From a virus (taxonomy: Duplodnaviria; Caudoviricetes): a stretch of DNA of 64,000 nucleotides. Location of the stretch: the IMG/VR virus record IMGVR_UViG_3300025913_000034, positions 863 through 64,862 of that record; one strand, 5' to 3'. The notes under the pieces are model-generated. The model saw nothing but the letters and a program-made list of their open reading frames with translations, was not told where the DNA came from and searched no databases. The translations under genes and the position numbers were made by a program. Below, piece after piece: positions 8,967 through 60,489 of the stretch; the stretch's first letter is position 1, and each line of letters opens with the position of its first letter.

Positions 8967-9734
8967 GCGACGCGTGGGCCAACGGCATCCTCGTTGCGTT
9001 CATCGCGTTCGCCTTGATCGTAACGATCGCGTTTGCCGTTACGACCGGCTATGACGACAGGGGGAAGCGGTGAAGAGGTGGGGCTGATGGAGACGGAAGG
9101 CCTGGAGTGGATCGGTTGGTTGCTGCGCGCCTGTCGGGCAGTCCGCGCCATCGGGTGGTGGGCGCGCCTTTCCCTGCGCTACGCGTTGATCACCGCCGTC
9201 ACAGATGAGGCCTCTCGCTTGGCGGCCGAGCTGGCAGCGGCAAAGCCCCCGCCCAGCGGTGCACTTCGACAGTCGCTCAGGAAGGGAATCCAATGAGCCC
9301 GCTGGACTACCTGCGTGCCATGGCCGGGCGCCGGAAGCCGGCCACCGGCGGCATCGTGCGGTACGACCCCGCGAAGCCGATCATCACGCCGAACCACTGT
9401 TACGTTCAGCGCCCAGCCCCGGAACACGCGCCGGCATATGCAAAACTGACAATTCGGCTGGGTGGCCCGACACCTGAGGACGTGCGGAGGATGGCGGAGG
9501 GCCTGCGGCTGCCCGTCTCTGCAATGCCAGGGCCAGCCAAGTGCGAACAGCAGGCACAGGCTGCAGGACGCTCGCCGGCCGCAGCCGAAACGGGGTGCCC
9601 CTGCGGCGTGATCTACAGCCGCTGCTACTACCCGGTAACGCACGCGGCACCGAGGCGCTAACCCGAACCGGCTGCGCGGCCGACCCCCGGAGCCGTAGCC
9701 TGACCGCCCAGCCTCTCCATCGAATCGGGAAACG

Positions 9735-10370
9735 ATGAGCGCCATAAACCTGGGAGACCTCCCCACCTGGATCGCAGGACTCGGAGCCTTCGCCGCGGTC
9801 GCCACGGCCCTATGGGTCGCCCACGACGGCAACACGAAGAACGAGGCCCACCGCCTCGAAGACCGCGGCCACGCCCTGACCGATTTGATCGAGGAACGTC
9901 GGCGAGCCGACAAAGCCCTGCTGGAAGAGCGTGCAATCGCCCAGGAAAACCTCGCCGACGAGCGGAAGCTCGCCGCCGGCCAGCGCCGTGCCGACCACCT
10001 GACCCGGCTGCTGCTCGAGGTCTACGACCTGTACGGCGCGTCCGTCGGGACCACCTCTGCGCCCGTGCGCAACGACGCCCTGTTCCGGATCCGGCCGCGA
10101 CTCGCCGTCCTACCGCCCGAGCTTGCCGTCGCCATCCGCATCGGAGTCAGTGACTCGACCTCAACCGAGAGCCGGCGCAACAAGGAAGCGTGGCTGCGAC
10201 ACCGGCTTGGTCTCCCCCAGGTGCCGAAGTCCAACGGGATCACCTGGGAGATCGTGAGCCGCGAAGCCGAGTTCGACCTGTGGTGGGTGCAGCAGATCGA
10301 CGCGCCCCGGCTGGACCACCATCCGTATCCGTGGCACGACTTCGATACCCTACGCAACGCCGAGGACTAA
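9735..10370 (+). CDS. Membrane-anchored coiled-coil protein
   Basis: N-terminal hydrophobic helix WIAGLGAFAAVATALWV, then EERR-rich helical repeats. Confidence 0.65.
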   Translation: MSAINLGDLPTWIAGLGAFAAVATALWVAHDGNTKNEAHRLEDRGHALTDLIEERRRADKALLEERAIAQENLADERKLAAGQRRADHLTRLLLEVYDLYGASVGTTSAPVRNDALFRIRPRLAVLPPELAVAIRIGVSDSTSTESRRNKEAWLRHRLGLPQVPKSNGITWEIVSREAEFDLWWVQQIDAPRLDHHPYPWHDFDTLRNAED

Positions 10371-10410
10371 GAACACGGTGAGGCCCGGCTCAGGCTGGCG
10401 GTCAAACCGT

Positions 10411-10439
10411 TCGCCAGCATCCTGACCAACGGCTACCGT
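10411..10439 (+). promoter_or_regulatory. Putative sigma70-type promoter of the Y-RNA/Ro60 operon
   Basis: TCGCCA (10411-16), 17-nt spacer, TACCGT (10434-39; TANNNT), about 7 nt upstream of the first Y-RNA-like element. Confidence 0.5.
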
Positions 10440-10446
10440 GAGGGAC

Positions 10447-10522
10447 GTCCAGGTGCGACGGGCAACTCGGTTACTTCTTTCGCAAAGGTGCTAAACCGAA
10501 CCGCCCATACGGATCTCTGGGC
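10447..10522 (+). ncRNA. Y-RNA-like element 1 (short, no T/D arms)
   Basis: Terminal stem GTCCAG/CTGGGC; GGTGCG...GGATCT Ro-type helix; GGTTACTTC motif shared with element 2. Confidence 0.65.
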
Positions 10523-10542
10523 ACTGAAAACAACAGAGCTTC

Positions 10543-10674
10543 CCCGCTGGGTGCGCAGGCCGTGGTTACTTCACCTGTTAAGTGAGTGTTGCCGGTTCGA
10601 GTCCGGCCGGGTTTCGGCCCGTAGCTTAATTGGCAAAGCGCTACGTCACCGCAGCCGTCTTGATCTCCGGCGGG
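10543..10674 (+). ncRNA. YrlA-type Y RNA 2 with circularly permuted tRNA-Asn(GTT)-like domain
   Basis: Terminal stem CCCGCTGG/CCGGCGGG; GGTGCG...TTGATCT; TTCAC-CTGTTAA-GTGAG anticodon arm; GCCGG-TTCGAGT-CCGGC T arm; acceptor stem closed by TTCG; GCTT-AATTGGCA-AAGC D arm. Confidence 0.88.
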
Positions 10675-10690
10675 TCCAACTTCATAAGCA

Positions 10691-10808
10691 CCTCCCGGTG
10701 CGCTGGTCGCGGGTACTTCTTGCAGAGGATCGGTTCGAATCCGAGCGCCGCTTCGGCGGTGACGACGTATGGCTACGTCAAATCCGCTGCCAACCTGACC
10801 TCGGGAGG
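10691..10808 (+). ncRNA. YrlA-type Y RNA 3
   Basis: Terminal stem CCTCCCG/CGGGAGG; GGTGCG...CTGACCT; T arm TCGG-TTCGAAT-CCGA; CGCCGC-TTCG-GCGGTG closed acceptor-like stem; GACGTA-TGGC-TACGTC at the D-arm position. Confidence 0.82.
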
Positions 10809-10822
10809 AGCACACAGACTTC

Positions 10823-10970
10823 GGTCGCGCCCGGTGCGCAGGCGGCGAGTTCATCCTTTGGGAGGACGAGGTCGCCGGTTCAAATCCGGCCCACCCCGGG
10901 AAGCCGGGGCGGTGGCTCAGCCTGGTAGAGCGCGTAAATTCTCGCAGCCGAGTTGACCTCGGGCGCGACC
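10823..10970 (+). ncRNA. YrlA-type Y RNA 4 with permuted tRNA-Pro(TGG)-like domain
   Basis: 11-bp terminal stem GGTCGCGCCCG/CGGGCGCGACC; GGTGCG...TTGACCT; TTTGGGA loop; GCCGG-TTCAAAT-CCGGC T arm; GCTC-AGCCTGGTA-GAGC D arm. Confidence 0.88.
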
Positions 10971-10978
10971 GTCTGATC

Positions 10979-11013
10979 AGGGCTCCTTCCGCACACCAGC
11001 AGGAAGGAGCCCT
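10979..11013 (+). promoter_or_regulatory. Hairpin sequestering the Ro60 Shine-Dalgarno sequence
   Basis: Perfect 12-bp inverted repeat AGGGCTCCTTCC/GGAAGGAGCCCT; the 3' arm contains GGAAGGAG just upstream of ATG 11018. Confidence 0.6.
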
Positions 11014-11017
11014 CTCC

Positions 11018-12607
11018 ATGTCGAAGTTCAACAAGCCGGTGGCGGTCGCGGCCCGCACGACCTCCCCGATCATCAGCACCACGCCGGCCACAACCCACCA
11101 GGGCGGCGCCGGCTTCGCGCGCGACGCGAAGTCGGAACTCTTCCTCCTCGCCGTCACCAACATGGTCGGCGAGAACACCTTCTACGAGACCGCCAGCGCC
11201 CGCGACACCCGCTTCGAGGAACTCGTGCACCAGGTCGCGGTCCTCGACGGCGACTGGATGCGCCGCTTCATCCCCTGGCTGCGCGCCGAAGCCAACATGC
11301 GCTCGGCGTCCCTGGTGGCCGCAGCCGAAGCCGTCCACGCGCGGCTCGCAGCCGGACTGGCCGGCGACAACCGCCAGATGATCGCCGCCGCATGCCAGCG
11401 CGCCGACGAGCCCGGCGAGATGCTCGGCTACTGGGACTCCCGCCACGGCCGCGCCATCCCGAAGCCGGTGAAGCGCGGCGTCGCCGACGCCGTACAGCGG
11501 CTCTACAACGGCAAGAGCCTGCTCAAGTACGACACCGACACCCGCGGCCACCGCTTCGGCGACGTCATCGACCGCGTCCACCCGTCGCCGGCCCCGGACA
11601 AGCCGTGGCAGGGCGACCTGTTCCGCTACGCCCTCGACCGCCGGCACGGCCGCGAGGACACACGCCTGCCGGAAGGCAACTTCACCCTGGCCGCGCGGCA
11701 GCGCCTGATGGACCTGCCGGTCGCGATGCGGCGCGAATGGCTCACCAACATCCCGGACGTCGCCGAGAAGCTGCGCGAGGCCGGCATGACGTGGGAGTCG
11801 CTCGCCGGCTGGCTCCAAGGCCCGATGGACGCCGCAGCGTGGGAGGCGATCATCCCATCCATGGGCTACATGGCGCTGCTGCGGAACCTGCGGAACTTCG
11901 ACCAGGCCGGAGTCTCCGACGAGGTGGCCGAGCAGGTCGCCGCACGCCTGGCCGACCCGGAGCAGGTGGCACGGTCCCGGCAGTTCCCCTTCCGGTTCTA
12001 CGCCGCGCACAAGAACACCGGCTCGCTGCGGTGGGGCCACGCGCTGGAGAAGGCACTGAAGTCGTCGCTGGCGAACGTGCCCGTGCTGCCCGGCCGCACG
12101 CTGGTGTTGGTGGATCAGTCGCCGTCGATGTTTCCCGGCTTCTACTACTCCACGCCGAACACCTCCGACATTGCCCTGGCGGAGAAGGCTGCGCTGTTCG
12201 GCTCGGCAATCGCGCTGCGCGCCGAGCACGCCGATCTCGTCGGCTACGGCTTCGCCAACTACAAGGTGCCGATCGGAAGGGGCGATGCGGTACTGGAGGT
12301 GATGAAGCGCTTCCACGTGGAAGACGGCACCGACACGCCGCGCGCGATGGTGGAGAACTTTGCCGGCCACGACCGGGTCCTGATCGTCACCGACGAACAG
12401 ACCGCACACTCGCGGCTGCCCGGCCGCACCGTAGAGAACGCGGTCCCGGCGAACGTGCCGGTCTACACCTGGAACCTGTCGGGCTACCGCCCGGGCCACG
12501 GGCCGTCCGGGACCGCGCGCAGGCACACCTTCGGTGGCCTCACCGACCAGGCGTTCCGCATGATCCCGCTCCTCGAGGCGGCCCAGTCCCAGTCGTGGCC
12601 GTTCTGA
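11018..12607 (+). CDS. rsr: Ro60/Rsr-like TROVE-domain RNA-binding protein with C-terminal vWA domain
   Basis: 529 aa; TROVE features (ELFLLAV..GENTFYE, LRAEANMRS, QRADEPGE, MALLRNLRNF, SRQFPFRFYAA); MIDAS-like LVDQSPSM and VTDEQ. Confidence 0.93.
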   Translation: MSKFNKPVAVAARTTSPIISTTPATTHQGGAGFARDAKSELFLLAVTNMVGENTFYETASARDTRFEELVHQVAVLDGDWMRRFIPWLRAEANMRSASLVAAAEAVHARLAAGLAGDNRQMIAAACQRADEPGEMLGYWDSRHGRAIPKPVKRGVADAVQRLYNGKSLLKYDTDTRGHRFGDVIDRVHPSPAPDKPWQGDLFRYALDRRHGREDTRLPEGNFTLAARQRLMDLPVAMRREWLTNIPDVAEKLREAGMTWESLAGWLQGPMDAAAWEAIIPSMGYMALLRNLRNFDQAGVSDEVAEQVAARLADPEQVARSRQFPFRFYAAHKNTGSLRWGHALEKALKSSLANVPVLPGRTLVLVDQSPSMFPGFYYSTPNTSDIALAEKAALFGSAIALRAEHADLVGYGFANYKVPIGRGDAVLEVMKRFHVEDGTDTPRAMVENFAGHDRVLIVTDEQTAHSRLPGRTVENAVPANVPVYTWNLSGYRPGHGPSGTARRHTFGGLTDQAFRMIPLLEAAQSQSWPF

Positions 12608-12627
12608 TTGATGGACTGCTGAATGCA

Positions 12628-12657
12628 GAGAAGCCCCGGCCGAGGCCGGGGCTTCTC
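12628..12657. terminator. Hairpin between convergent genes (likely bidirectional terminator)
   Basis: GAGAAGCCCCGGCC-GA-GGCCGGGGCTTCTC perfect inverted repeat. Confidence 0.75.
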
Positions 12658-12664
12658 CGTGCGG

Positions 12665-13318
12665 TCAGTAGTTCACCACAGTCAGGAACTCGATGTTCTG
12701 CGGGAAGATCCGGCCGCCGCGCAGCTCGACATCGGCGACGTCGGAGCCGATGACATTCCGGTAGAGCCGCTGGATCGTGCCGACCACCGGGTCCGGGAAC
12801 TCGCTGACCTCCAGCCGCACCCGGTCCCCGGGCTGCACGTGCCGCGCCGGGCCGGACAGCGCCGCCAGGACGTCGTCGGCGGTTGCCGGGGCGGTGCACA
12901 CTCGGTAGTCCAGGATGTAGTTGAAGTGGCCGGTGTGGCCACAGCCCCGGCAGACGGTGTCGTTGTGCAGGCTGTCCGGGACGTCGCCGAGGCGGTACCA
13001 GTGACCGCGGGCCGTGACCGTCACGCGGATCGCGTCCCAGCCCGCGAACCGGCCCCGGGCGTTGCGGCCGGTGGTGAACACCCGGACGCCGTCGGCCATG
13101 CCGCCGGGGAACGTCGGCAGGATCTCACGGACCCCGGTGGCCGGGTCGATGACGAGGGCGCCGGACCGCTCGGCGGCCGCGGCCGCCAGGAGCCGGTCGA
13201 GCTCGGCGAGCAGGCCGGGCGGCAGCGCGAGCAGCTGCTCGCCGTCGGCGTTCTCGACGCCGGGGTGCGCGGCGTAGAAGGCGTGGAGCCGGTCGCGGGC
13301 CGGGGTGATGGTGGGCAT
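12665..13318 (-). CDS. Hypothetical protein (CxxC motif, SH3-like C-terminus)
   Basis: AGGAG RBS; CRGCGH; VQPGDRVRL. Confidence 0.6.
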   Translation of the reverse strand: MPTITPARDRLHAFYAAHPGVENADGEQLLALPPGLLAELDRLLAAAAAERSGALVIDPATGVREILPTFPGGMADGVRVFTTGRNARGRFAGWDAIRVTVTARGHWYRLGDVPDSLHNDTVCRGCGHTGHFNYILDYRVCTAPATADDVLAALSGPARHVQPGDRVRLEVSEFPDPVVGTIQRLYRNVIGSDVADVELRGGRIFPQNIEFLTVVNY

Positions 13319-13355
13319 GCGGTTCTCCTGGTTCGGGTCGGTGGTGGCTGGCGGA

Positions 13356-13793
13356 TCAGACGCCGGCGAAGGCGTGGGCGACGGGGTGGCCCGGCAGCGT
13401 CAGCACGAGGCTGGCGGTGCGGCTGTAGGCCAGCGCCCCGGCGATCAGGTCCAGGGGGTTGCTGTAGCGGTACGTCGCCCGCAGGCGGCCGTTGACGACG
13501 GACAGGCCGCGCCGGTCGGGCTCGGTGCCGTGGTTTTCGCGGTAGGCCTTCAGCACGGCCTTGCCGAACGCGGCGGCGTAGCGGGCGTCGACCCCGAGGG
13601 TCTCCAGGTATTCGCCGGCCGTCAGCCAGCCCTGGCGGGACGCTGCGGCCCGTGCGCGGTCGGCCTGGCCGATGACGCGGTGGCCGTGCTTCTTGGCGGT
13701 GTTGCGGGCCTCGCAACGCGCCTCGGCGCGGCGTCCGGCGCGGCCGGTCAGGGTCGGGCGGTTCTGGCCCTTGCGGTAGTAGCCCTGCAGCAT
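13356..13793 (-). CDS. Hypothetical basic protein
   Basis: AAGGGGGA RBS before ATG 13793. Confidence 0.6.
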   Translation of the reverse strand: MLQGYYRKGQNRPTLTGRAGRRAEARCEARNTAKKHGHRVIGQADRARAAASRQGWLTAGEYLETLGVDARYAAAFGKAVLKAYRENHGTEPDRRGLSVVNGRLRATYRYSNPLDLIAGALAYSRTASLVLTLPGHPVAHAFAGV

Positions 13794-19381: not shown

Positions 19382-19454
19382 TGGACCTGACCGGATTTGA
19401 ACCGGCGACCTGCTGCCTGCCGGACAGCTGCTCTACCTGCTGAGCTACGGGCCC
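19382..19454 (-). tRNA. tRNA-Ala(GGC), atypical, CCA not encoded
   Basis: GGGCCCG TA GCTC AGCAGGTA GAGC A GCTGT CCGGCAG GCAGC AGGTC GCCGG TTCAAAT CCGGT CAGGTCC A; G3:U70; C33; C6:A67 mismatch. Confidence 0.85.
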
Positions 19455-32102: not shown

Positions 32103-35100
32103 TCAGCCCACCGCCAGGGCGAGCTGCCGCATCATGTCGGCCTGCTGCTCGACCGTGGGGCGTTGCGTGCCGTTGTAGTTGATCGTGACGTTCGGCCCCA
32201 GCGGCGTCGCGCGTGTCTTCTGCGCGGTGGTCGCGGCCGGCAGCGGCATGATGGTGTCGCCGCGGTTGAGGAACGCCAGCTCCGGCCCCTTCTCGCCGAC
32301 GATCGCCACGCCGGAGGTGGTGGCGGTACCGCCGTCGGCCATCCACGGGGAGATGTGCCCGAGGTTGGGGATGCCGGGGATGCCAGCCCACGACCATATG
32401 TCGGACAGCCCGTGGGTGACGTCGTTGGTCCGGTCGACCACGAAGTTGATGCCGCCGATGATCGTGTTGATGGTGCTCTTGAAGATGCCCTCGACGGTGC
32501 CGGCGATGTCGCTCAGCCCGGTCTTCACCCAGTCCCACAGGTGGGCGCCTGCCGTGGCGAGCCGTCCCGGAAGCTTGCCGATGAAGGCGACGATGTCGTT
32601 CCAGTGCCCGATGATCAGCGAGATGCCGCCGGTGAACGGCGCGAGGATCTCAGGCCACCACCGGACGATGAAACCGGTGAAGTCATCGAAGACGCCCTTA
32701 ACGAACCCCCAGCCTTCGCTGAAGATGCGCTGCACCTCGGCGACCATGATGCCGATGAAGACCTTCAGGTCCGACAGGTGATCCCACAGGTAGCCGACCG
32801 CGACGATCACGAGGCCCACCGGGGAGATCAGCCCGAGCAGCGCCAGCGCTACCCACTTCAGCCAGCCCACGTTGTCCTGCAGGAACCCCGCGATGCCGTT
32901 CAGGATCGGCGCCAGGATCTCCAGGGCGCCGGTCAGTCCCTGGGCGATGATCGGCAGCAGCGGCTCGAGCACCTGAAGGACCGCGTTGAAGACGTTGGCG
33001 AGAGCCAGCAGCGCAGTCGTCAGCGACGGCATCATCGGCAGTAGCGCCGCCAGGAGCTTGTTCACGAACTCTGTCAGCGGCGGGACGATCGTCTTCAGCG
33101 CGGGTCCCAACGCGCCGCTCAGGGCACCCACGATCGCGCCCAGAGGGCCCAGGAGGTTGGAGACGAGGTCGAGGATGGCCTGGATGGCCTCCCCGGCGCC
33201 CCCGGCGTTGATGGTCAGGCCGTTCAGGAAGTCCGGCAGCCCCGAGGCGAGGATGTCGTGCAGCCCCTGCCCGATGGCCGACACGATCGGGCTCGCGGCC
33301 TGACCGGCCTCGGCGATGCCGTTCAGCGCGTCGGCGAACCCGGATCCGAACTGCTGCAGCAGCCCGACGCCCTCGTGCAGGATTCCGGCGATCGCGCTTT
33401 GGAACGCAGGGTTCTTTATCAGGTTCCCGACCTGTTCGCCCAGGCCGCCGATGACGCGGCCGGCCTCGCCGACCGACGTGTTGAAGATCGGCAGCAGCGG
33501 CGCGGAGTCCTTCAGCATCTGCGTCAGGCCCGGCAACATCGTCGTCTGCGCGGTCCGGGAGATCTCGCCCAGCTGCGACCTCACCGACAGCAGCTCGTTG
33601 ACGAAGTCCCGGCCGGGCTGCGTGAGCTTGGCCATGTCCTGCGCGAACTTGTCCACCGCGCCGCCGCCGGCCGACGCCGCGGCGGCGGCCGCGAGGCGCT
33701 GCTGGGTCAGCAGGTCCGACAGTGCCTGCTCGGCCCGCTGCACCTGCTGCGCGGATGCGATCCGCTGCGCGGCCGCCGCGGCGTCTGCCTTCGCCAGCGA
33801 GTTCTGGGCGTTCTGCTGGTCCTGCAGCGCCTGGGTGACGTCGTGCTGGGCGCCGGCGACCTGCTCGGCCGCCATCTCGGCGGAGTGCTGCGCGTTCAGC
33901 ACCGCCGGGGCCTTGTCGACGCCGTCCTGCTGCGCCTGGTTGGCCTTCTCCGTGGCTTCCTTCGACCGCTGCTGCGCGTCGGTGACACCTTGTTCGGCCT
34001 GCGCCAGGGCCAGCTTTGCATCAGCCAGCTGCTGCGGCGTGGTCATGCCGTTGTCCTGCGCCTGCGTCAGCGCGGTCTGGGCCTTCGTCAGGTTGCTCGC
34101 GGCCTGCTGCGCCGCCAAGTCGGCATCGGCCGCTGCGTTGCGGGCGTCGGCGATCTGGTTGGTGGCATCGGCGCGGGCCTGCGTGACGGCCTGCTGTGCC
34201 TGCTGCTCGTCGTACAGGCTGTTGGTGTAGGACTGTTCGGCCTGCTGCACGCCGTAGGTGGCGGAGACGACCTGCTGTTGCGCGGCGACGATCTGGTCCG
34301 CTGAGGACTTCGCGGCCTGGGCCGCGGCGACCTTCGCATCGGCGATCGCCTGCTCGGCGTTGCGGACGGCGACGGCGTTGGAGAACGCCGTCAGGGCCAG
34401 CTGCGCCGAGGACTGGCCGGCGCTGCTGCTCTGTGCGCCGTAGTCCTTCAGGGCGCCGATGACCGGTATGAACGCACCGGCGAGCGCGCCGACCGCCGAC
34501 CCGAGGCCGCCGAACGCGGCGGGCAGCGCCGCCAGCGCCGGGCCCAGCGTTATGACGGCGCCGACCATCATGCCGGTGGTGCTGGCCAGTGCCGAGAAGA
34601 CACCGCCGACGCTCGACGCCGCCCCGCTGACGCCGCCCATTTTCTGGTTCAGGTCGCTGAACATCGACCGGATGCGGTCGATCACCCCGGCGAAGCCGTC
34701 GAGCTGCTGCTTCGTCTCGTCGGACTTCTTCCCGACCACGTCCAGGCCGGCGGCGAGCTTCTCCGCGTCGGAGGCGAACCGGCCCTGTGCGTTGCGCAGG
34801 CGGCCGTCGGCGTCGGTCCACAGGCCGTTGGCGAGCTTGTCGCCGATCTCTGCGCCCGCGGCTTCGGCATCGGCGCCGACGTCCTGGCCGATACTGCGCA
34901 GCCGGGTACGCAGCGGCTCGGCGTTGAGCTCGGCCTCGACCGGGATTTTGATCTCGCCGGTTTCGCCGATGGCTTCGGCTTCGGCCTTGACCTCCTCGGC
35001 CAGGCCCGCGGCGTCGGCCTTGACGTGGACGTCGATCTTCTCATCCGCCCCGGCCTCGGCGGCTTTCGCGGCGACATCCTCGCGCAGCCCGGCATCATCG

Positions 35101-35234
35101 GCGGCGACCCGCAGGCGGAGTTCGAGCCCTTCGGCCGCGGCGGCGATCTTCGCGGCGAGCGAGGAGCGCAGGTCGGTGTCGTCGGCGACGAGCTCGACGT
35201 AGGCGTCGGCGACCTTGAAATAGGCCTCGGGCAT
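32103..35234 (-). CDS. Tape measure protein
   Basis: 1043 aa Ala/Gln/Gly-rich helical protein following the chaperones; C-terminal MADGG...IVGEKGPEL. Confidence 0.93.
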   Translation of the reverse strand: MPEAYFKVADAYVELVADDTDLRSSLAAKIAAAAEGLELRLRVAADDAGLREDVAAKAAEAGADEKIDVHVKADAAGLAEEVKAEAEAIGETGEIKIPVEAELNAEPLRTRLRSIGQDVGADAEAAGAEIGDKLANGLWTDADGRLRNAQGRFASDAEKLAAGLDVVGKKSDETKQQLDGFAGVIDRIRSMFSDLNQKMGGVSGAASSVGGVFSALASTTGMMVGAVITLGPALAALPAAFGGLGSAVGALAGAFIPVIGALKDYGAQSSSAGQSSAQLALTAFSNAVAVRNAEQAIADAKVAAAQAAKSSADQIVAAQQQVVSATYGVQQAEQSYTNSLYDEQQAQQAVTQARADATNQIADARNAAADADLAAQQAASNLTKAQTALTQAQDNGMTTPQQLADAKLALAQAEQGVTDAQQRSKEATEKANQAQQDGVDKAPAVLNAQHSAEMAAEQVAGAQHDVTQALQDQQNAQNSLAKADAAAAAQRIASAQQVQRAEQALSDLLTQQRLAAAAAASAGGGAVDKFAQDMAKLTQPGRDFVNELLSVRSQLGEISRTAQTTMLPGLTQMLKDSAPLLPIFNTSVGEAGRVIGGLGEQVGNLIKNPAFQSAIAGILHEGVGLLQQFGSGFADALNGIAEAGQAASPIVSAIGQGLHDILASGLPDFLNGLTINAGGAGEAIQAILDLVSNLLGPLGAIVGALSGALGPALKTIVPPLTEFVNKLLAALLPMMPSLTTALLALANVFNAVLQVLEPLLPIIAQGLTGALEILAPILNGIAGFLQDNVGWLKWVALALLGLISPVGLVIVAVGYLWDHLSDLKVFIGIMVAEVQRIFSEGWGFVKGVFDDFTGFIVRWWPEILAPFTGGISLIIGHWNDIVAFIGKLPGRLATAGAHLWDWVKTGLSDIAGTVEGIFKSTINTIIGGINFVVDRTNDVTHGLSDIWSWAGIPGIPNLGHISPWMADGGTATTSGVAIVGEKGPELAFLNRGDTIMPLPAATTAQKTRATPLGPNVTINYNGTQRPTVEQQADMMRQLALAVG

Positions 35235-39977: not shown

Positions 39978-41036
39978 TCAGGAGCCGGAGTTGTCCTCGA
40001 GGATCGACACCGCGTTCTCGTGGCCCAGGGCGAAGCCGCGCCGCGCGCGCATCTTCAGGATCGATTCGTCGGTCAGCGCCGACAGGCCGTTGCGGCCGTC
40101 GATGAACACGCTCTCCGGGCCCGAGCGGATGCCGAGCAGCAGGAAGGACGGGACCGTCAGCATCGCCAGCGGGTTGCCGGTCGGCTTGGCCGTCGGGGCC
40201 GCGGACGTCTTCGCGCCCAGGGACCACTTCACCGGGTAGCCCATGATGTAGTCGGGCACGTTCTGTGCGCCGCCGGCGGTGCCGTTGCTGGACTCGTTGA
40301 AGATCGGACGGTTGTTGCCGTCCTTGATCCCGCGCAGCTTCTTCTTGAAGTTCGGGTGGCAGATCCACAGGGCCTGCTCTTCGTCCCAGTAGTCGCCGGA
40401 CTCGACGATCGACGCGACCGAGGACAGCAAGTCGTAGGTGGTGCCGCCGGTGCCGGTCTTGGTCAGGTTGGTGTTGGCGGTGTAGCCGGTGTTCGAGTCG
40501 GACTGGGTGAGCTGGTAGTACACCGAGTCGAACGCGCAGCCGCTGGTACCCTTCGCCGCCGTCACGGCCAGACAGGCATTGTCCAGGCCCTTGGCGTAGG
40601 CGGTGCCCCAGTCGGTCATCTTGGTGTTGATGATGTCGGCCAGGGAGTCGTCGATGTCCTCCTCGGCGATCCGGACGGCCTTGCCGAACTTCTGGACGCG
40701 CAGCACCACGTCGTCGTTGGTGTTGGTGTCCTCGCCGTAGGTGCCGCCCTTGGCGATGATGTCGACGTCGACGCCGCCGGAGCGCGGGGTGGAGCGGGTC
40801 TGCGACTTCATCGGGACCCGCTGGGCGTAGGCCTCGATGGCGGAGGTCTGCCGGACCTTCTGGATGACGTCGGAGCCGAATTCCTCGGGGATCCACGCGT
40901 CGAAGTTGTCGCGGGCGCCACCACCGGCGGAGCGGATCGGGGTGCCGTTGCGGCGCCAGCCGATGATGTCGCCGGGGTCCACGTCCTGGACGCGCGGGTC
41001 GAACAGTTCGAGGTCGGGGTGAATCAGGGAGGCCAC
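39978..41036 (-). CDS. Major capsid protein (HK97 fold)
   Basis: WIPEEF...QRVPM...KLRGIKDGNNRPIF...IMGYPV; follows the scaffold gene. Confidence 0.92.
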   Translation of the reverse strand: MASLIHPDLELFDPRVQDVDPGDIIGWRRNGTPIRSAGGGARDNFDAWIPEEFGSDVIQKVRQTSAIEAYAQRVPMKSQTRSTPRSGGVDVDIIAKGGTYGEDTNTNDDVVLRVQKFGKAVRIAEEDIDDSLADIINTKMTDWGTAYAKGLDNACLAVTAAKGTSGCAFDSVYYQLTQSDSNTGYTANTNLTKTGTGGTTYDLLSSVASIVESGDYWDEEQALWICHPNFKKKLRGIKDGNNRPIFNESSNGTAGGAQNVPDYIMGYPVKWSLGAKTSAAPTAKPTGNPLAMLTVPSFLLLGIRSGPESVFIDGRNGLSALTDESILKMRARRGFALGHENAVSILEDNSGS

Positions 41037-42056: not shown

Positions 42057-43121
42057 TCAGCGTGTCGACGGGGTCCGCCGAGACGGCGCGGCTGGGACAG
42101 CGCGGGTGGTGAACCGGCCGCGCCGTACCGCGGCGCGGGCGTAGGCCTGCACGGTCGCGGGTGCGTTGACGCCGCGGTTCAGGAGCCGCTGTGCCGCGCG
42201 GACACGTTCGGGCCCGGATTCGCTCGGCAACGACCAGCCCTTCAGGACGGAGCGCTGGGCTTCGCGGCGCAGTGCCGCCGGAAGGTCGACGGCGCCTGCT
42301 ACCGATCCTCTCCACACCGCGGTGCGGCATCGGCAGTGCGGGTGGATGGGCGGGGAATAGATGGGTCCGGGTGGCCAGATCCGCGGCTTGGCGGTGAACG
42401 CTGCGGCGTGTGCGGCGTCGAACGACTGGCCCGGATCGGCCACGCGCCCGGACAGTCCCAGGCATGTGAGACAGGCGTCCGGCTCGGCGATGAGCAGCCG
42501 CTGCGCGTCCAGGGCGTCGGCGACCGCGGCGATGCCGGTGTTGGCGGCACCGTTGACGGCCTGGACGGTGGCGGCTTGGGCGTCGTTCGCGGCACGGTGC
42601 GCCTTGGCAAGCGCGGCGGCAACATCCGAGAACGCCGGGCCCGCAGTGTTCAGTGCGCCGTCGGCATCGGCGATGCGCTCGGCGACGGCCGCGGGCAGCC
42701 CGGCGATCGCGCGCAGGGTGGTGTCGTCCAGGCCTGCATCGACGCCCGCGGTATTGGTGCCCGTTTCGCGACCAGCTTGGGTGATGCCGAGATCCAAGGC
42801 GCGGTTCGCGTAGCTGCGCAGTACGTCGCTTCTGCCGGCGGGAACGTCCGCGAGCTCACGGCGGATCGCGGCGATGACCTGCCCCTGCCGGATCGGGTCG
42901 GCGGCGGCGTCCAACGATCCGAACGCGGTGATCCAGGCGGTGGCGGCACGGCGCTGGATCCGGATCAGCCGGGCACGCAGCGGCAGGGCAACTGCGCGGG
43001 CGGCCAGCTGCTCCAGCGCGTACAGCTCGGCGGCGTGCAGCGCGATCTGCGCCGCCGTCGGCTGCTGCGGCTGCGCGGCGGCCGCGGTGCTACTCGGCGG
43101 CGGGGGTGGCGGGGACGGCAC
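42057..43121 (-). CDS. MuF-like minor head protein
   Basis: DACLTC...PPIHPHCRC. Confidence 0.8.
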   Translation of the reverse strand: MPSPPPPPPSSTAAAAQPQQPTAAQIALHAAELYALEQLAARAVALPLRARLIRIQRRAATAWITAFGSLDAAADPIRQGQVIAAIRRELADVPAGRSDVLRSYANRALDLGITQAGRETGTNTAGVDAGLDDTTLRAIAGLPAAVAERIADADGALNTAGPAFSDVAAALAKAHRAANDAQAATVQAVNGAANTGIAAVADALDAQRLLIAEPDACLTCLGLSGRVADPGQSFDAAHAAAFTAKPRIWPPGPIYSPPIHPHCRCRTAVWRGSVAGAVDLPAALRREAQRSVLKGWSLPSESGPERVRAAQRLLNRGVNAPATVQAYARAAVRRGRFTTRAVPAAPSRRTPSTR

Positions 43122-44850
43122 CGGCGGCGCCCTGCTTCGGTGGCGCGGGCGGCGCCGGGAACACGATCAGCGGCTTGTCGTCGTCGACGCCCGGCACCGG
43201 CAGCTCCGGGGCTGTCGGCTCTTCCTCCGGTTCGTCGATGCGGGCCGCGTTCACGGCCTCGCCGACGACTTGGGAGATCAGCACCTGGACCTGTTCCTCT
43301 TGCAGGATCCCGAACCCGAGTGCGGCACCCAACGCCTGCAGCGCCTGGCCGATCTTCAGGAGCATGTCGACCTGGACGGGCAGGTCGTCGTCTCCGTCGC
43401 CGAACCACTCCTCGATCTGCTCGGAGGTGTAGCCGGCCTCCAGGAACGCCTGCCGGACGGGCAGGCCGGCCTGCAACTTCACCATGAGGGTCTGCCAGCC
43501 GTTCTCGTCGTCGACGGTGGCCGGGGACTTCCAGTGGATGTCGACGTCGGCGTCGTCGATGCCGAGGATCAGCAGCGCGAACTCGAACAGCTCAGACCAG
43601 GTGTCGCCGTAGTACTGCTGACGGTCCTTGATCTTCTTGGTGAACGGGGCTTCCATCGCGCGCAGCGCCTCACCGGAGATGGGGGCGCCGGTCGGGTCCA
43701 GCCGGGTCAGCGGCGTGTCGGTGATCAGGCCGCCGAACCGCAGGTACAGGGTGAGGGGGTCGGTGAACACGGTGGGCTGTGCCTGGTCGAACTGGCCGAC
43801 TCCCTTGACGCCTTGGAGCCACCAGACGCTGCCGGCGTCGGCGGACAGCTGCGACTGGGGGTCGCCGGGGCGGGAGGTGGCGCCGGTGTCGAGGGCGAAC
43901 TGGAATTCGTCCTCGTCGCCGGCGGCGAGTTCGGAGGAGTCGGTGTCGCCGTCGGACAGGGCATAACGCTGGGGGAAGGCGTTGTAGTCGACGCCTGCCA
44001 TGTGCGACAGGATCAGTTTGCGGATGGCGTCTTGGACGCCGTAGAAGCCTTCGTGTTCCGGGGTTCCGTAGGGGTCGTCGTTGCGGAAGTGGAAGACGGG
44101 GATGACGCCGAACGGGTTGGTGCGCGGCCAGCCGGGGCCTTCGTCGACGTCGGCCGGGTCTGTGGTGCCGCCGATGTCGCTGTCAAAGAACGGGATCATG
44201 TCTTCGGCTTTGGGCCGGGTGATGCCGGGCTTGGACCAGTACTTCTCGATCCGGTCCGGGTAGTACAGGTCGACGCGGACCCGCTTCTGCGCGGTGAGAA
44301 CCCACTGCTTGACCGCGAAGGCCTTGCGCATGGGGTTCTCGGGGTCGTAGAAGACGCGGCAGGACCGCGGGGAGTTGTAGAAGATGTCGACGTTGCGGAT
44401 GCCGTCGGCGTCGGGGTCGTCTTCGGGCGAGGGCCACACGATCACGTAGGCGTCGCCGTACTTGCCCGCGTTCCGCATGATCGTCTTGGATTGGCGGCTC
44501 AGCTTGTTGTCGCGCCACAGGTCGTCGATCAGCGTCTGTGCGCCGGCGGTCGCCGACGTCACCGCGGCGATCTCCAGCCGTTCGGTGACGGCCTCGACCG
44601 GCTTTTTCGCGAAGTTCATGCGGAAGGCCTGGCCGGTGCGGGCCATGGCGCGGCGCAGCCGGATCGAGGCGTTGGCCTCGGCACGGGTGCCCTTGTAGTA
44701 CTGCTCGGCGGTCTCGTAGGGGCCGTCGGATTCGGCGAGTTCGGCCAGCGCCAGTTCCAGGTCCGACGACGGTTGCGTGCCGCCGTAGTCGGGCATGGCG
44801 CCGGCGCCCGGGATGACGTCCGAGACGGATCCGTCGGTGATCGACAGCAA
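43090..44850 (-). CDS. Portal protein (SPP1 gp6-like)
   Basis: YYKG, NFAKKPVEAVTERL, YGDAYVIVW, NPFGVIPVFHFRN, ISGEALR; GGAGG before TTG. Confidence 0.92.
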   Translation of the reverse strand: MLSITDGSVSDVIPGAGAMPDYGGTQPSSDLELALAELAESDGPYETAEQYYKGTRAEANASIRLRRAMARTGQAFRMNFAKKPVEAVTERLEIAAVTSATAGAQTLIDDLWRDNKLSRQSKTIMRNAGKYGDAYVIVWPSPEDDPDADGIRNVDIFYNSPRSCRVFYDPENPMRKAFAVKQWVLTAQKRVRVDLYYPDRIEKYWSKPGITRPKAEDMIPFFDSDIGGTTDPADVDEGPGWPRTNPFGVIPVFHFRNDDPYGTPEHEGFYGVQDAIRKLILSHMAGVDYNAFPQRYALSDGDTDSSELAAGDEDEFQFALDTGATSRPGDPQSQLSADAGSVWWLQGVKGVGQFDQAQPTVFTDPLTLYLRFGGLITDTPLTRLDPTGAPISGEALRAMEAPFTKKIKDRQQYYGDTWSELFEFALLILGIDDADVDIHWKSPATVDDENGWQTLMVKLQAGLPVRQAFLEAGYTSEQIEEWFGDGDDDLPVQVDMLLKIGQALQALGAALGFGILQEEQVQVLISQVVGEAVNAARIDEPEEEPTAPELPVPGVDDDKPLIVFPAPPAPPKQGAAGAVPATPAAE

Positions 44851-59014: not shown

Positions 59015-59300
59015 TTGGGAGATTTCCGGGAGATGATCTTGTGGAAGTTATGTATACCCAAGTATCCACATGTATCTATGTGTCTCGCTAAGTGCCATGT
59101 CATTCGGGGCGTCCATAGCCAGTTAGGCGCTGACCAGGGGCGCCCCGCACTATTTTGCCATGTGGGCCGTAGGAAGCAGCAGACCGTAACCCGCATTCAG
59201 CACTCGGGAAGAGATGCATCTAGACCGTACGGGTCTGAATATCAAGCGCTGTGCACGAGGCGCAGGCCGCCCTTTTGGGAGACAAACGGGAGACGATCTT
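59015..59300. mobile_element. Putative attP region
   Basis: 26-nt direct repeats TTGGGAGA-N4-CGGGAGAYGATCTT at 59015 and 59275; GTAT at a 10-bp period (59052, 59062, 59072); lower GC; adjacent to the integrase 3' end. Confidence 0.7.
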
Positions 59301-60489
59301 GCCGGGCAGCCACTGCGACAAGGTCTGGGCGCTCCCGGCACAGCCGGTCCCACCGCGCCTGAAGCGCGGCCACGATCTCCTGCTCCATGGCCTCGCTCGT
59401 GTGCGAGTAGACACCCTCGACGCCCTGGAGCTGATGCCCCATACGCTCCTCGGCGGCGATGCGCGGTGCTCCGTCCTCGTCGATCCACACCTTGTGGCTG
59501 TGACGCAGGCCGTGCATGGTGAGGCCCTTCGCACCCTCAACGGCCGGCACCGCGGGCTTGCGGACTTTGCTGCCGTTGTACGTGGCCTCACGACCGTTCA
59601 CGGCCTCGGAGAATGCCAGCTGACCGAAGCCCGACCGGCGCGGGTGGGCGCCCTTTGCTCCGAGGAAGAGGTGCACCTGATCCACCGGCAGCGTGTCGAG
59701 AAAGTCGCGCAGGATAGTCACCAAGAACGGGGGGATCGGCAGTGTGCGGCGGCTGCCGTACTTCGGCTCCTTCTCCTCGAAGCTCCCGTCGTCGTGCTCG
59801 ACCAGCTGCCACTCGACGCGGACCGCGCCCCGCTCCAGCCAGACGAACTCGCGCTTGAGTCCGACCAGCTCACCCCAGCGCATGCCCGTGAAGGCGGCCA
59901 GGACGGCCAGGACGAACGCCCACTCCCCGCGCAGGACGCGCAGGTTGTTCGCCACGCGCAGCACGTCCGCTTCGTAGACCCAGACCTTCTCGGTGTGCGT
60001 TCGACGCTTGTAGCGACCGCGGCGCTTGCGCCTCTGCGCGGGGTTGAAGTCGATGAGCCCCTCGTAGACGGCGTCTTCGAGCATCGTGACGAGCAGTCCA
60101 CGGGTGACGGACAGGGTGTTGGGCTTCATGCCGCCCTCGGCAAGCGCGGTCGCCCAGGCTTCGACCTTCAACGGCTTAATGTCCGCCAGCGGGCGGTCGC
60201 CCCAGGCCGGCACCAGGTGGATGCGCAGACGGGTGCGGTAGCGCTCCATGGTCAGGCTGGAGACGTCTTGGGCGTCGATCCAGCGCTCGGCCCAGTCCTT
60301 GAACAAGATCTTGCCGCGCTCTGGGTCTTTCCAGATGCCGCGCCGGATATCGGCTTCCTGCTCGCGGCCGTAGTTGACGGCGGCGTCTCGGGTGGCGAAT
60401 CCGGGCTCTGAGTCCCAGCTGCCGTCGGGGAGTTGGAAGCGGGCCCGCCACGGATAGGGGCCCTTGCCGCGTTTCTCTGCGTAGGCCAT
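59242..60489 (-). CDS. int: Tyrosine integrase
   Basis: Arm-binding N-terminus (WRARF...GFATR..A); TGMRWGEL; HGLRHSH; RMGH; VYSH. Confidence 0.95.
   Translation of the reverse strand: MAYAEKRGKGPYPWRARFQLPDGSWDSEPGFATRDAAVNYGREQEADIRRGIWKDPERGKILFKDWAERWIDAQDVSSLTMERYRTRLRIHLVPAWGDRPLADIKPLKVEAWATALAEGGMKPNTLSVTRGLLVTMLEDAVYEGLIDFNPAQRRKRRGRYKRRTHTEKVWVYEADVLRVANNLRVLRGEWAFVLAVLAAFTGMRWGELVGLKREFVWLERGAVRVEWQLVEHDDGSFEEKEPKYGSRRTLPIPPFLVTILRDFLDTLPVDQVHLFLGAKGAHPRRSGFGQLAFSEAVNGREATYNGSKVRKPAVPAVEGAKGLTMHGLRHSHKVWIDEDGAPRIAAEERMGHQLQGVEGVYSHTSEAMEQEIVAALQARWDRLCRERPDLVAVAARQDRLPFVSQKGGLRLVHSA

What the first reader, a model, noticed from the sequence alone, without database searches (positions are those of the whole stretch)
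10479..10863. Each Y RNA displays a different canonical anticodon loop: possible tRNA decoy panel
Seen: at the equivalent position each unit has a 7-nt loop fitting Y-U-NNN-R-N: TT-CGC-AA (10479), CT-GTT-AA (10575), CT-TGC-AG (10719), TT-TGG-GA (10857), i.e. Ala, Asn, Ala and Pro anticodons. Units 2 and 4 are complete circularly permuted tRNAs (anticodon arm, T arm, loop-sealed acceptor, D arm) that cannot be aminoacylated. The stems under the loops in units 1 and 3 are only about 3 bp and are weaker evidence. Known: in described YrlA the Ro-binding stem occupies the anticodon-arm position, and anti-phage anticodon nucleases and toxins cut specific tRNAs. Inference: Ro60-protected decoys that titrate anticodon nucleases, synthetases or modification enzymes, diversified by capture of different tRNAs.
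Basis: partly seen in the sequence, partly recalled or inferred. Interest (0 to 1): 0.85.

Follow-up and report, generated by a model that had tools for sequence, protein, structure and literature searches.

The report
Phage Y RNAs carrying whole permuted tRNAs
Upstream of a phage Ro60 gene lie four small Y RNAs, two of which contain a complete rearranged tRNA with a genuine anticodon arm, a part that published descriptions of these RNAs label as a variable arm; the proposed decoy role remains untested.

Summary
The window is most of a 64.9-kb temperate actinophage genome. Positions 10447-10967 hold four tandem Y-RNA-like units directly upstream of a Ro60/TROVE gene (11018-12607).

All four 7-nt loops are at the stated coordinates. 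Only units 2 (CUGUUAA) and 4 (UUUGGGA) stand up as anticodon arms.

- **Conservation.** I chose 80 distinct homologous units by motif spacing alone. In 76 of them the element is a 5-bp stem plus a 7-nt loop. Loop positions: C32 in 71/76, U33 in 71/76, R37 in 67/76, A38 in 74/76.
- **Branch point.** Covariation shows that stem pairs 27-43 and 28-42 use the two bases just after the D arm. The Ro-binding stem therefore branches between nt 28 and 29.
- **tRNA test.** After rejoining in silico, ARAGORN of 82 units tRNAs. Window unit 2 is called Asn(GUU) and unit 4 Pro(UGG).
- **Triplet.** It is the fastest-changing part, at about the rate of fourfold-degenerate sites.
- **Units 1 and 3.** They are not supported as anticodon mimics.

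Chen et al. 2014 call this element the "V" arm. A competitive-inhibitor role for YrlA is already in print in generic form. The "decoy panel" is plausible but untested. My verdict is a new variant of a known kind, of moderate to high interest.

The parts
10447..10522 (+). Unit 1: short Y-RNA-like unit with no T, acceptor or D arm.
   Evidence: Sequence. MFE draws a closing stem and an apical 5-bp stem plus triloop, z -0.37. It shares the U-Y-G-C-A-R apex with 12 of 65 distinct T-arm-less units.
10543..10674 (+). Unit 2: YrlA-type Y RNA holding a permuted tRNA. Lower anticodon stem 10572-10574 with 10582-10584; loop CTGTTAA 10575-10581; nt 42-43 at 10585-10586 pair with nt 28-27 at 10642-10641; variable loop 10587-10590; T arm 10591-10607; sealed acceptor 10608-10621 (5 bp + UUCG); D arm 10624-10639; nt 26 at 10640.
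   Evidence: Rfam YrlA local match, 37.3 bits, 10587-10639. Pair counts on homologues. ARAGORN calls tRNA-Asn(GTT) after un-permuting. Loop-masked body is nearest to Streptomyces tRNA-Asn.
10691..10808 (+). Unit 3: degenerate tRNA-like unit.
   Evidence: MFE, z -2.17. The only close homologue is L001 2682-2787, with an identical hairpin. 0 of 61 other-spacing units give an anticodon-like MFE loop.
10826..10967 (+). Unit 4: YrlA-type Y RNA holding a permuted tRNA. Lower anticodon stem 10854-10856 with 10864-10866; loop TTTGGGA 10857-10863; nt 42-43 at 10867-10868 pair with nt 28-27 at 10934-10933; variable loop AGGTC 10869-10873; T arm 10874-10890; sealed acceptor 10891-10912 (9 bp with one mismatch, GAAG); nt 8-9 at 10913-10914; D arm 10915-10931; nt 26 at 10932.
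   Evidence: Rfam YrlA full-length match, 36.6 bits, 10845-10965, which draws the ACG/CGU pairing. ARAGORN calls tRNA-Pro(TGG) after un-permuting. Loop-masked body: Phe 0.83, Pro(TGG) 0.81.
10980..11012 (+). GC-rich hairpin between the array and the Ro60 start. Its 3' arm contains the Shine-Dalgarno-like GGAAGGAG at 11002-11009.
   Evidence: Sequence; drawn in the MFE of the whole spacer. Role not tested.
11018..12607 (+). Ro60 (TROVE) gene, 529 aa.
   Evidence: Pfam TROVE 1.6e-18. It is 43-66% identical to 16 viral and 80 actinobacterial homologues, nearly all preceded by Y-like units.

Best explanation
The 10447-10967 spacer encodes four tandem Y RNAs, probably co-transcribed with the phage's Ro60 gene and cut into units.

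Each unit has a basal stem and a conserved GGUGCG(A/C) stem that should bind Ro60. This binding is inferred from the family, not shown here.

In units 2 and 4 the far end is a whole tRNA in permuted order. The strand entering from the Ro stem becomes anticodon-stem bases 29-31. It then runs through the 7-nt loop, bases 39-43, the variable loop, the T arm, a loop-sealed acceptor stem, the D arm, base 26 and bases 27-28. Bases 27-28 pair back with 42-43 before the strand returns to the Ro stem. The Ro stem is therefore a side branch of an otherwise intact anticodon arm.

The most likely function is a whole-tRNA look-alike at the effector end of a Ro60 particle. The arm completes the L-shape, so that tRNA-recognising proteins accept and stabilise the RNA or are tethered to Ro60. 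Candidates are modification enzymes, RNase P, the CCA enzyme and PNPase-type partners.

On this reading the loop frame (C32, U33, A37/G37, A38) is under selection but the triplet is not. The different 'anticodons' come from different tRNA ancestors (Asn-like, Pro-like) plus drift, not from a designed panel.

Shown here: the anatomy, its conservation and covariation, and the speed of triplet change. Inferred: Ro60 binding, processing and the partner.

The confidence of 0.55 is for the whole statement. I put the anatomy at about 0.85-0.9 and the 'triplet is not read' mechanism at about 0.45-0.5.
For: Family and setting:
- TROVE gene directly downstream.
- Sub-threshold but specific Rfam YrlA matches to units 2 and 4, E 1.7e-06 and 2.7e-06.
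- The same layout occurs in most of the 96 related loci.

Anticodon arm:
- 76 of 80 spacing-selected units have a 5-bp stem plus 7-nt loop with C32/U33/A38 in at least 93%.
- The composite stem pairs in 98.3% of cells. 4 of 5 pairs show compensatory changes, and 0 of 500 shuffles reach the covariation score of 0.529. With the 3' partners slid, 25-61% of cells pair.
- The two trans pairs are 100% paired: GC 64, AU 16, CG 2 for one; GC 74, CG 4, AU 2, UA 1 for the other.

Whole-tRNA test:
- ARAGORN of 82 un-permuted units tRNAs of 70-73 nt, with the join at either 26/27 or 28/29.
- In native order it already miscalls 14 of them.
- In 3 of 5 GenBank phage records examined, a feature annotated as tRNA begins with the Y-unit motifs, including UUAC-UUC.

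Loop follows tRNA habits: G36 goes with G37 in 4 of 4 rows against 2 of 72 (Fisher 1.2e-05, not corrected for relatedness).

Triplet unconstrained:
- In 11 sister pairs it differs at 12 of 33 sites. The neighbouring Ro60 gene differs at 0.15 per fourfold site, and every other class of site in the unit differs at 0 to 0.20 per site.
- Parsimony steps on the Ro60 tree are 20, 19 and 13 at positions 34-36. Fourfold sites have mean 12.3 and 90th percentile 18.

Precedent: YrlA is modified by TruB and DusA, and M. smegmatis YrlA is cut by RNase P with CCA added (PMC4201824, sections 6 and 10 read, section 8 passages). In the Salmonella crystal structure the AC stem has a kink at the conserved UA (preprint 10.1101/312249, passages).
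Against: - No experiment or read data shows that these RNAs are made, cut or bound by Ro60.
- The 3D arrangement of the three-way junction is not known.
- Energy-based folding alone does not favour the 7-nt loop.
- C37, which tRNAs do not have (recalled), occurs in 9 of 76 rows, so the mimicry is imperfect.
- A fast triplet fits an arms race as well as drift. Several sister pairs differ at two or three of the three positions at once, which independent neutral changes make unlikely.
- Positions 35-36 are U-rich and G-poor in genomes of about 70% G+C, so they are not wholly free.
- All Rfam YrlA scores are below the gathering score.
Confidence: 0.55

Rival explanations
1. Decoy or bait panel. 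Ro60-protected anticodon stem-loops of chosen identity soak up or sense anticodon-directed nucleases, synthetases or modification enzymes, and the triplets diversify under an arms race.
For: - The arm is an accurate anticodon-arm copy with an exposed loop.
- The triplet is the fastest-changing part, with multi-base switches between sister species.
- Loop and body agree in identity for units 2 and 4.
- Across all units, the nearest real tRNA has the same isotype in 8.2 of 79, against 3.94 +/- 1.57 with shuffled labels; 16 of 2000 shuffles reach the observed value.
- Viral arrays interleave genuine tRNAs with Y units.
- An RNA ligase gene sits next to the Ro-like gene in phage JustBecause.
- Phage LeBron carries Ro-like, RNA ligase and polynucleotide kinase genes (PMC13148394, passages).
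- A competitive-inhibitor role for YrlA against an anticodon nuclease has been suggested (PMC7790460, section 17 passage).
Against: - No nuclease or partner is known.
- The rates at positions 34-36 fall within the range of fourfold-degenerate sites, so positive selection is not shown.
- 9 of 76 loops carry C37.
- The same arm sits in chromosomal Streptomyces loci with unrelated neighbours.
- I found no RNA-repair gene among the 56 ORFs of this phage that I scanned.
- Salmonella YrlA was not cut by the DNA-damage-induced nuclease (PMC7790460, passage).
Confidence: 0.2
2. The published reading: the hairpin is an enlarged variable (V) arm, as in class II tRNAs. The Ro-binding stem alone stands in for the anticodon arm, and the loop's likeness to an anticodon loop is incidental.
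For: - Chen et al. 2014 model it this way and note that the conserved YUAY begins the V loop (PMC4201824, section 6).
- In the Salmonella structure the AC stem runs on into the Ro module (10.1101/312249, passages).
- Units with other spacing have irregular hairpins with loops of 3-12 nt.
Against: - A normal 4-5 nt variable loop, such as AGGUC, still follows the hairpin before the T stem.
- The hairpin's 3' strand continues into the two covarying pairs with bases 27-28, making one 5-bp stem.
- Loop size and C32, U33 and A38 are conserved.
- tRNA finders read it as the anticodon arm.
Confidence: 0.1
3. Split functional tRNA. After RNase P cleavage in the acceptor cap and CCA addition, the two base-paired pieces form a chargeable tRNA with a real anticodon, used in or outside translation.
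For: - M. smegmatis YrlA is cut by RNase P and gains CCA (PMC4201824, section 8 passages and section 10).
- Most chromosomal units have exactly 7 acceptor pairs.
- Un-permuted units pass ARAGORN.
Against: - The window's acceptor stems are 5, 6 and 9 bp, closed by stable tetraloops.
- A bulky Ro stem leaves the anticodon stem at 28/29.
- Triplets drift freely and C37 occurs.
- No charging has been reported in the texts I read.
Confidence: 0.04
4. Chance resemblance, or a relic with no selected role.
For: Units 1 and 3 fit the loop rule only through choice of register.
Against: For the unit 2/4 class, stem covariation and loop-frame conservation hold across 76 of 80 distinct units from different species and viruses. 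0 of 500 shuffles reach the observed scores.
Confidence: 0.02

Closest known systems
YrlA-type bacterial and phage Y RNAs (Chen et al. 2014, RNA 20:1715; Rfam RF02553)
   Same: Encoded just upstream of, and on the same strand as, a Ro60 orthologue. Several Y RNAs per locus. A Ro-binding stem plus a tRNA-like module in the order T arm, sealed acceptor stem, D arm. A conserved YUAY element. Already reported in phages.
   Different: Here the 'V' stem-loop is a canonical anticodon arm whose top two pairs come from the strand after the D arm. Salmonella YrlA is described as lacking an anticodon loop. The 5' motif reads GGUGCG(A/C), not GNCGAA. Scores are below Rfam's gathering score. There are four units in tandem.
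Salmonella Typhimurium YrlA crystal structure (Wang et al. 2018; PDB 6cu1 as cited in preprint 10.1101/312249)
   Same: An L-shaped tRNA mimic. The anticodon-stem top is formed by the strand after the D arm and the strand before the variable loop. A conserved UA lies at a kink in that stem.
   Different: In Salmonella the stem simply continues into the Ro module. Here it forks at that point into a 3-bp stem with a 7-nt loop and the Ro stem.
Circularly permuted and split tRNA genes of algae and archaea (recalled; alluded to in the discussion of 10.1101/312249)
   Same: The 3' half of the tRNA is encoded upstream of the 5' half, and the acceptor ends are joined by a short linker.
   Different: Those are processed into ordinary linear tRNAs. 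Here the break carries a long Ro60-binding stem, and nothing suggests re-ligation.
tmRNA and viral tRNA-like structures
   Same: Non-tRNA molecules that copy the tRNA fold to engage tRNA enzymes.
   Different: Those have free CCA ends and are charged. These units have a sealed acceptor stem and, unlike tmRNA, a true anticodon arm.

Membership tests
YrlA Y RNA (Chen 2014 / Rfam RF02553) | Encoded within about 2 kb of a Ro60 orthologue, on the same strand | tested here: met
   The array at 10447-10967 (+) ends 50 nt before the TROVE ORF at 11018-12607 (+).
YrlA Y RNA (Chen 2014 / Rfam RF02553) | 5' motif GNCGAAN0-1G, thought to contact Ro60 | tested here: inconclusive
   The units read GGUGCGA-C (unit 1), GGUGCGC-A (units 2 and 4) and GGUGCGC-U (unit 3). 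Among 80 homologues, 37 have GCGAAGG-type and 43 GCGCAGG-type. This is related to the published motif but not a literal match.
YrlA Y RNA (Chen 2014 / Rfam RF02553) | Conserved T arm and D arm with an acceptor-like hairpin between them | tested here: met
   Met for units 2 and 4: Rfam alignment and consensus with covariation on 82 units. Unit 3 has a 4-bp T arm and no true D arm. Unit 1 has none of these.
YrlA Y RNA (Chen 2014 / Rfam RF02553) | Score at or above Rfam's gathering score (69 bits) | tested here: not met
   37.3 and 36.6 bits in the window. 34.7-47 bits for 12 matches in 9 related loci.
YrlA Y RNA (Chen 2014 / Rfam RF02553) | Bound and stabilised by Ro60 | not testable with these tools
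   Needs immunoprecipitation.
tRNA (RF00005) | Contiguous cloverleaf with free acceptor ends | tested here: not met
   ARAGORN finds no tRNA in 10300-11020. Rfam tRNA scores 16.5 bits against a gathering score of 29.
tRNA (RF00005) | All four arms with standard sizes once the order is restored | tested here: met
   81 of 82 un-permuted units are called tRNA, at 70-73 nt. I built the constructs from alignment columns chosen with the expected structure in mind.
Class II tRNA variable arm (published 'V' reading) | Hairpin lies between the anticodon stem and the T stem, with only 1-2 nt before the T stem (recalled definition) | tested here: not met
   4-5 nt follow the hairpin. Its 3' strand continues into pairs 42-28 and 43-27.
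Anticodon stem-loop | 5-bp stem, 7-nt loop, U33, purine 37 | tested here: met
   Composite stem 98.3% paired. 7-nt loop in 76 of 80; U33 71/76; R37 67/76, with 9 C37 exceptions. Not met for units 1 and 3.

The most novel reading that the evidence does not exclude
Actinobacteria and their phages keep Ro60-tethered, sealed tRNA copies with a real and fast-switching anticodon loop as baits. Each bait intercepts or reports an anticodon-directed nuclease or other anticodon reader. Tandem arrays, sometimes interleaved with genuine tRNA genes, would then form a changeable panel of specificities.
Probability: 0.17. Interest if true: 0.85.

Novelty: new variant of a known kind. Interest (0 to 1): 0.6.

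Why it matters
Y RNAs and Ro60 are conserved from bacteria to humans, yet the partner of the bacterial tRNA-like module is unknown.

If a large actinobacterial and phage branch carries a full anticodon arm, with the Ro stem as a side branch at nt 28/29, three things follow:
- **Partner candidates.** The list of candidate partners widens to enzymes that read anticodon loops.
- **A testable hypothesis.** The competitive-inhibitor and decoy idea becomes testable with triplet swaps.
- **Annotation errors.** It explains why tRNA finders and GenBank records list Y-RNA halves as tRNA genes next to Ro-like genes. This inflates phage tRNA counts.

It also fits the proposal that these RNAs arose from tandem tRNA transcripts.

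Tried and rejected
**Folding by energy.**
- Single-unit z-scores were weak: -0.37, -1.58, -2.17 and -1.86.
- RNAalifold on 82 units drew the basal stem, Ro stem, T arm, acceptor and D arm, but not the hairpin.
- MFE of isolated segments gave a 7-nt loop in 14 of 80 long-spacing units, of which 6 fit the loop rule.
- I therefore rest the structure on pair counts, not on energies.

**Local-hairpin model.** I replaced it with the composite stem after the trans pairs proved 100% paired with compensatory changes.

**Positive selection on the triplet.**
- 12 of 33 sites differ in sister pairs, against about 5 expected at the fourfold-site rate.
- Tree-wide steps lie inside the fourfold-site range.
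- Fourfold sites are themselves biased in these genomes. Selection is not shown.

**Capture of whole tRNAs.** The enrichment is modest and not corrected for relatedness.

**Expression.**
- One RNA-library contig (X24, 151 nt, 5 differences) lies on 10623-10768, and one (X7, 190 nt, 0 differences) lies on 11245-11400.
- These are contigs from libraries that may hold DNA, so they are no proof of transcription. Parts without cover mean nothing.
- The habitat labels of the runs were not used.

**Promoters and terminators.** No sigma-70-like promoter was found on 9600-13400. The 3 terminator-like sites are all on the minus strand, against 1.8 expected by chance.

**RNA-repair neighbours.**
- No ligase, kinase or RtcB family appeared among the 56 window ORFs scanned. 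The remaining ORFs, mostly in the structural block, were not scanned.
- Flanks of three Streptomyces loci share no conserved partner.

**Work not done.**
- I built no covariance model and made no wide taxonomic survey.
- Units with other spacing were not un-permuted as a control.
- No 3D model was made.

**Literature.**
- Searches.
- I found no text calling the V stem-loop an anticodon arm, and no paper that holds 'Y RNA', 'Streptomyces' and 'Ro60' together (0 papers).
- The two reviews PMC10870794 and PMC6047535 are not held.
- Figures and supplements of Chen 2014 (Tables S1 and S2, Figs S1 and S4) could not be seen. They may already draw this loop.
Full report
**Setting.** The window is bases 863-64862 of a single 64,862-bp virus record, 69% G+C.
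- It carries phage structural genes: tape measure 32103-35234, portal 43090-44850, large terminase 44906-46489 and major head protein 39978-41036, all on the minus strand.
- It also carries a tyrosine integrase at 59242-60489, so it is a temperate actinophage.
- A 647-nt spacer (10371-11017) precedes a 529-aa ORF at 11018-12607 with a TROVE domain (Pfam 1.6e-18). This is a Ro60 orthologue.
- ARAGORN finds one tRNA in the window, tRNA-Ala(GGC) at 19382-19454 (-), and none in the spacer.
- At gathering thresholds Rfam finds only that tRNA.
- In E-value mode on 10300-11050, Rfam gives two YrlA matches below the gathering score of 69: 37.3 bits at 10587-10639 and 36.6 bits at 10845-10965. It also gives a 16.5-bit tRNA match at 10833-10893.

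**The observation.** Each unit opens with GGUGCG(A/C) and closes on a 3' strand ending in a GAUCUC- or GACCUC-like motif. By MFE the units span 10447-10522, 10543-10674, 10691-10808 and 10826-10967.
- Unit 1 has no T, acceptor or D arm.
- Unit 3 has a 4-bp T arm, a UUCG-capped acceptor stem and a plain hairpin instead of a D arm.
- Units 2 and 4 have all the arms.

**Homologues.**
- The Ro60 protein retrieved 16 viral loci (43-66% identity). In the genome collection, 358 stretches encode a relative, and the best 80 were kept; they are mostly Streptomyces.
- A motif scan (T-loop GGTTCRANTCC plus GGYGCGN within 62 nt upstream) found 151 units. 141 have distinct 5' halves.
- To avoid choosing by pairing, I split them by spacing alone: 80 with 44-46 nt and 61 with other spacings.

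**The arm in the long-spacing class, to which units 2 and 4 belong.**
- 76 of 80 rows align without gaps to a 5-bp stem and 7-nt loop.
- Loop letters: position 32 C in 71/76; 33 U in 71/76; 37 A 61, G 6, C 9; 38 A in 74/76.
- The three middle columns have the highest entropies of the 5' half (1.58, 1.67 and 1.26 bits), with 20 different triplets. CUU (16), GUU (14) and CAU (13) lead.
- Position 36 is U in 58 of 80 rows.
- Stem cells pair in 95.7%, and two pairs show compensatory changes (25 and 17 cells). 0 of 500 shuffles of the scored hairpin-plus-T-arm structure reach the observed value. With the 3' partners slid, 36-63% of cells pair.
- G36 goes with G37 in 4 of 4 rows against 2 of 72 (Fisher 1.2e-05, relatedness not corrected). 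This is the pattern of tRNAs that carry m1G37 (recalled). Window unit 4 adds a fifth case.

**Where the tRNA is broken.** On 82 full-length units (A2), RNAalifold recovers five helices, with compensatory changes in 22 of 31 pairs: the basal stem, the Ro stem, the T arm, a 7-bp acceptor hairpin and the D arm. It does not draw the hairpin.
- Counting pairs directly, the local hairpin pairs in 96.3% of cells, but its two outer pairs use invariant U's (U-G 73 and U-A 2; U-G 64 and U-A 16).
- Bases 42 and 43 pair instead with the two bases that follow the D arm and base 26. Both pairs are 100% paired with full compensation: GC 64, AU 16, CG 2 for one and GC 74, CG 4, AU 2, UA 1 for the other.
- The composite stem takes 27-28 from the post-D strand and 29-31 from the incoming strand. 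It pairs in 98.3% of cells, and 4 of 5 pairs are compensatory. The covariation score is 0.529, against 0.393 for the local hairpin. 0 of 500 shuffles reach it, and slid partners pair in 25-61% of cells.
- In the window this reads C10641-G10586, U10642-A10585, C10572-G10584, A10573-U10583 and C10574-G10582 for unit 2.
- For unit 4 it reads C10933-G10868, G10934-C10867, U10854-A10866, C10855-G10865 and C10856-G10864. This removes the A-C mismatch of the local reading of unit 4.
- The Ro stem is thus a branch between nt 28 and 29 of an intact anticodon arm.
- This agrees with the Salmonella structure, in which the AC stem is built from the same two strands and kinks at the conserved UA (preprint 10.1101/312249, passages). 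It differs in that the stem here forks.

**Is it a whole tRNA?** In a script I restored the order (acceptor 5' strand, D arm, 26, then the arm, variable loop, T arm, acceptor 3' strand).
- ARAGORN then called 81 of 82 units tRNAs of 70-73 nt, with the join at 26/27 or at 28/29.
- With the 26/27 join, the anticodon equalled the aligned triplet in 77. The remaining called units sit in misaligned rows.
- Unit 2 is called Asn(GTT). Unit 4 is called Pro(TGG) with the 26/27 join. With the 28/29 join, its misaligned row gave an odd call.
- In native order ARAGORN already of the 82, and several units in the loci themselves.
- In 3 of 5 GenBank phage records examined, a feature annotated as tRNA begins with the Y-unit motifs (a 5' GCG-type motif followed by UUAC-UUC). 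They are VanLee tRNA-Arg(tct), GiJojo tRNA-Arg(cct) and JustBecause tRNA-Cys.
- These constructs were cut at columns I chose knowing the expected structure, and ARAGORN is permissive.

**Units 1 and 3.**
- MFE closes both loops to triloops.
- Unit 3's only close relative, L001, has the same hairpin, so nothing covaries.
- 0 of 61 other-spacing units yield an MFE 7-nt Y-U-NNN-R-N loop.
- Of the T-arm-less units, 21 of 66 have a UUC-anchored 4-bp stem around exactly 7 nt, and 16 of those fit the rule.
- 12 of 65 T-arm-less units, unit 1 among them, share a U-Y-G-C-A-R apex, against 1.27 expected by shuffling.
- These are real conserved hairpins but not convincing anticodon arms.

**How the triplet evolves.**
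- I took 11 reciprocal-nearest pairs of loci (mean divergence at Ro60 fourfold sites 0.15). Positions 34-36 differ at 12 of 33 sites (0.36).
- In the same pairs, positions 32-33 differ at 0 of 22 sites, the stems at 0.04-0.06 per site, the T arm at 0.03 and the acceptor cap at 12 of 61 sites (0.20).
- Some pairs differ at all three positions, or swap stem and triplet together while the rest of the unit is identical.
- On the Ro60 tree of 63 loci, parsimony steps are 20, 19 and 13 at positions 34, 35 and 36. The 55 fourfold sites have mean 12.3, 90th percentile 18 and maximum 26.
- The triplet is therefore at, or slightly above, a roughly neutral rate. It is unconstrained or mildly diversifying, and this test cannot tell which.

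**Origin.**
- With the 7-nt loop masked, unit 2's restored body is closest to Streptomyces tRNA-Asn (0.75, rank 1 of 41). Unit 4's is closest to Phe (0.83) and then Pro-UGG (0.81).
- Over 79 units, the nearest tRNA has the same isotype in 8.2, against 3.94 +/- 1.57 for shuffled labels; 16 of 2000 shuffles reach the observed value. Relatedness inflates this.
- Several body types therefore exist, but within orthologues the triplet changes on a constant body.

**What is in print.**
- Chen et al. [quoted passage not shown]
- Wang et al. state that Salmonella YrlA 'lacks the anticodon loop'. They call most YrlAs circularly permuted tRNAs with closed acceptor stems and cite a dimeric-tRNA origin model (10.1101/312249, passages).
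- Hughes et al. suggest that the tRNA-like domain may competitively inhibit an anticodon nuclease (PMC7790460, section 17 passage).
- I could not see the figures or supplements, or two reviews.

**Verdict.**
- The permuted-tRNA reading is supported and sharpened.
- The decoy panel is a reasonable hypothesis, partly anticipated in print and untested.
- The best-supported account is a Ro60-tethered whole-tRNA mimic whose loop frame is selected and whose triplet is free.

Noticed in passing
window 10980-11012: A GC-rich hairpin (GGGCUCCUUCC ... GGAAGGAGCCC) lies between unit 4 and the Ro60 start codon. Its 3' arm holds the Shine-Dalgarno-like GGAAGGAG (11002-11009). It could be a processing site, a terminator without a U-tract, or a translational switch.
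   Followed up: partly
L098 2123-2194 (Gordonia phage VanLee); L097 2269-2343 (Streptomyces phage GiJojo); L161 254-324 (Streptomyces phage JustBecause): Features annotated as tRNA-Arg(tct), tRNA-Arg(cct) and tRNA-Cys begin with the Y-unit motifs (a 5' GCG-type motif followed by UUAC-UUC) and look like 5' halves of Y RNA units. If so, phage tRNA counts next to Ro-like genes are inflated.
   Followed up: partly
L159 876-1286 (Gordonia phage Neville): Four short 'hypothetical protein' ORFs are annotated over what looks like a Y RNA array: UUAC-UUC motifs at 941, 1081 and 1166, and T loops at 964 and 1194.
   Followed up: partly
L161 648-1400; PMC13148394: An annotated RNA ligase gene sits directly upstream of the Ro-like gene in phage JustBecause. 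Mycobacteriophage LeBron carries Ro-like, RNA ligase and polynucleotide kinase genes. This links some phage Ro60 loci to RNA repair. No such gene was found among the ORFs scanned in this window.
   Followed up: partly
L006, L013, L014; L097, L160: In several viral contigs and phages, genuine tRNA genes and Y units are interleaved in one cluster around the Ro60 gene.
   Followed up: partly
L007 2595-2740: Rfam's tRNA model scores 46.5 bits on a stretch made of the 5' tRNA half of one Y unit and the 3' tRNA half of the next unit, with the spacer as an insertion. This echoes the dimeric-tRNA origin model.
   Followed up: no
window 19382-19454 (-), 10481-10483, 10721-10723: The phage's only true tRNA is Ala(GGC). 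The apex triplets of units 1 and 3 (CGC, UGC) would be the other two Ala anticodons. This may be coincidence, since U-Y-G-C-A-R is a conserved apex in a subgroup of T-arm-less units.
   Followed up: partly
L023/L046 and L075/L076 (class A units): Two hairpin forms recur: UUCGA-CUCAUAA-UCGGG and UUCCA-CUGUUAA-UGGGG. They differ in stem and triplet together between sister loci whose units are otherwise identical or nearly so. This suggests cassette-like exchange or gene conversion.
   Followed up: no
all unit classes, e.g. window 10567-10572, 10714-10719: The UAC-UUC element is nearly invariant in every class of unit, including those without a tRNA body. A conserved ..GU.. follows the D arm. These junction linkers are more conserved than pairing alone requires.
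   Followed up: no
window 10847 to 10588 (runs X2, X3): Metagenome contigs join the 5' part of a unit-4-like sequence to a unit-2-like T arm, with 19 other letters between. Related phages seem to carry recombined or differently tipped units.
   Followed up: no
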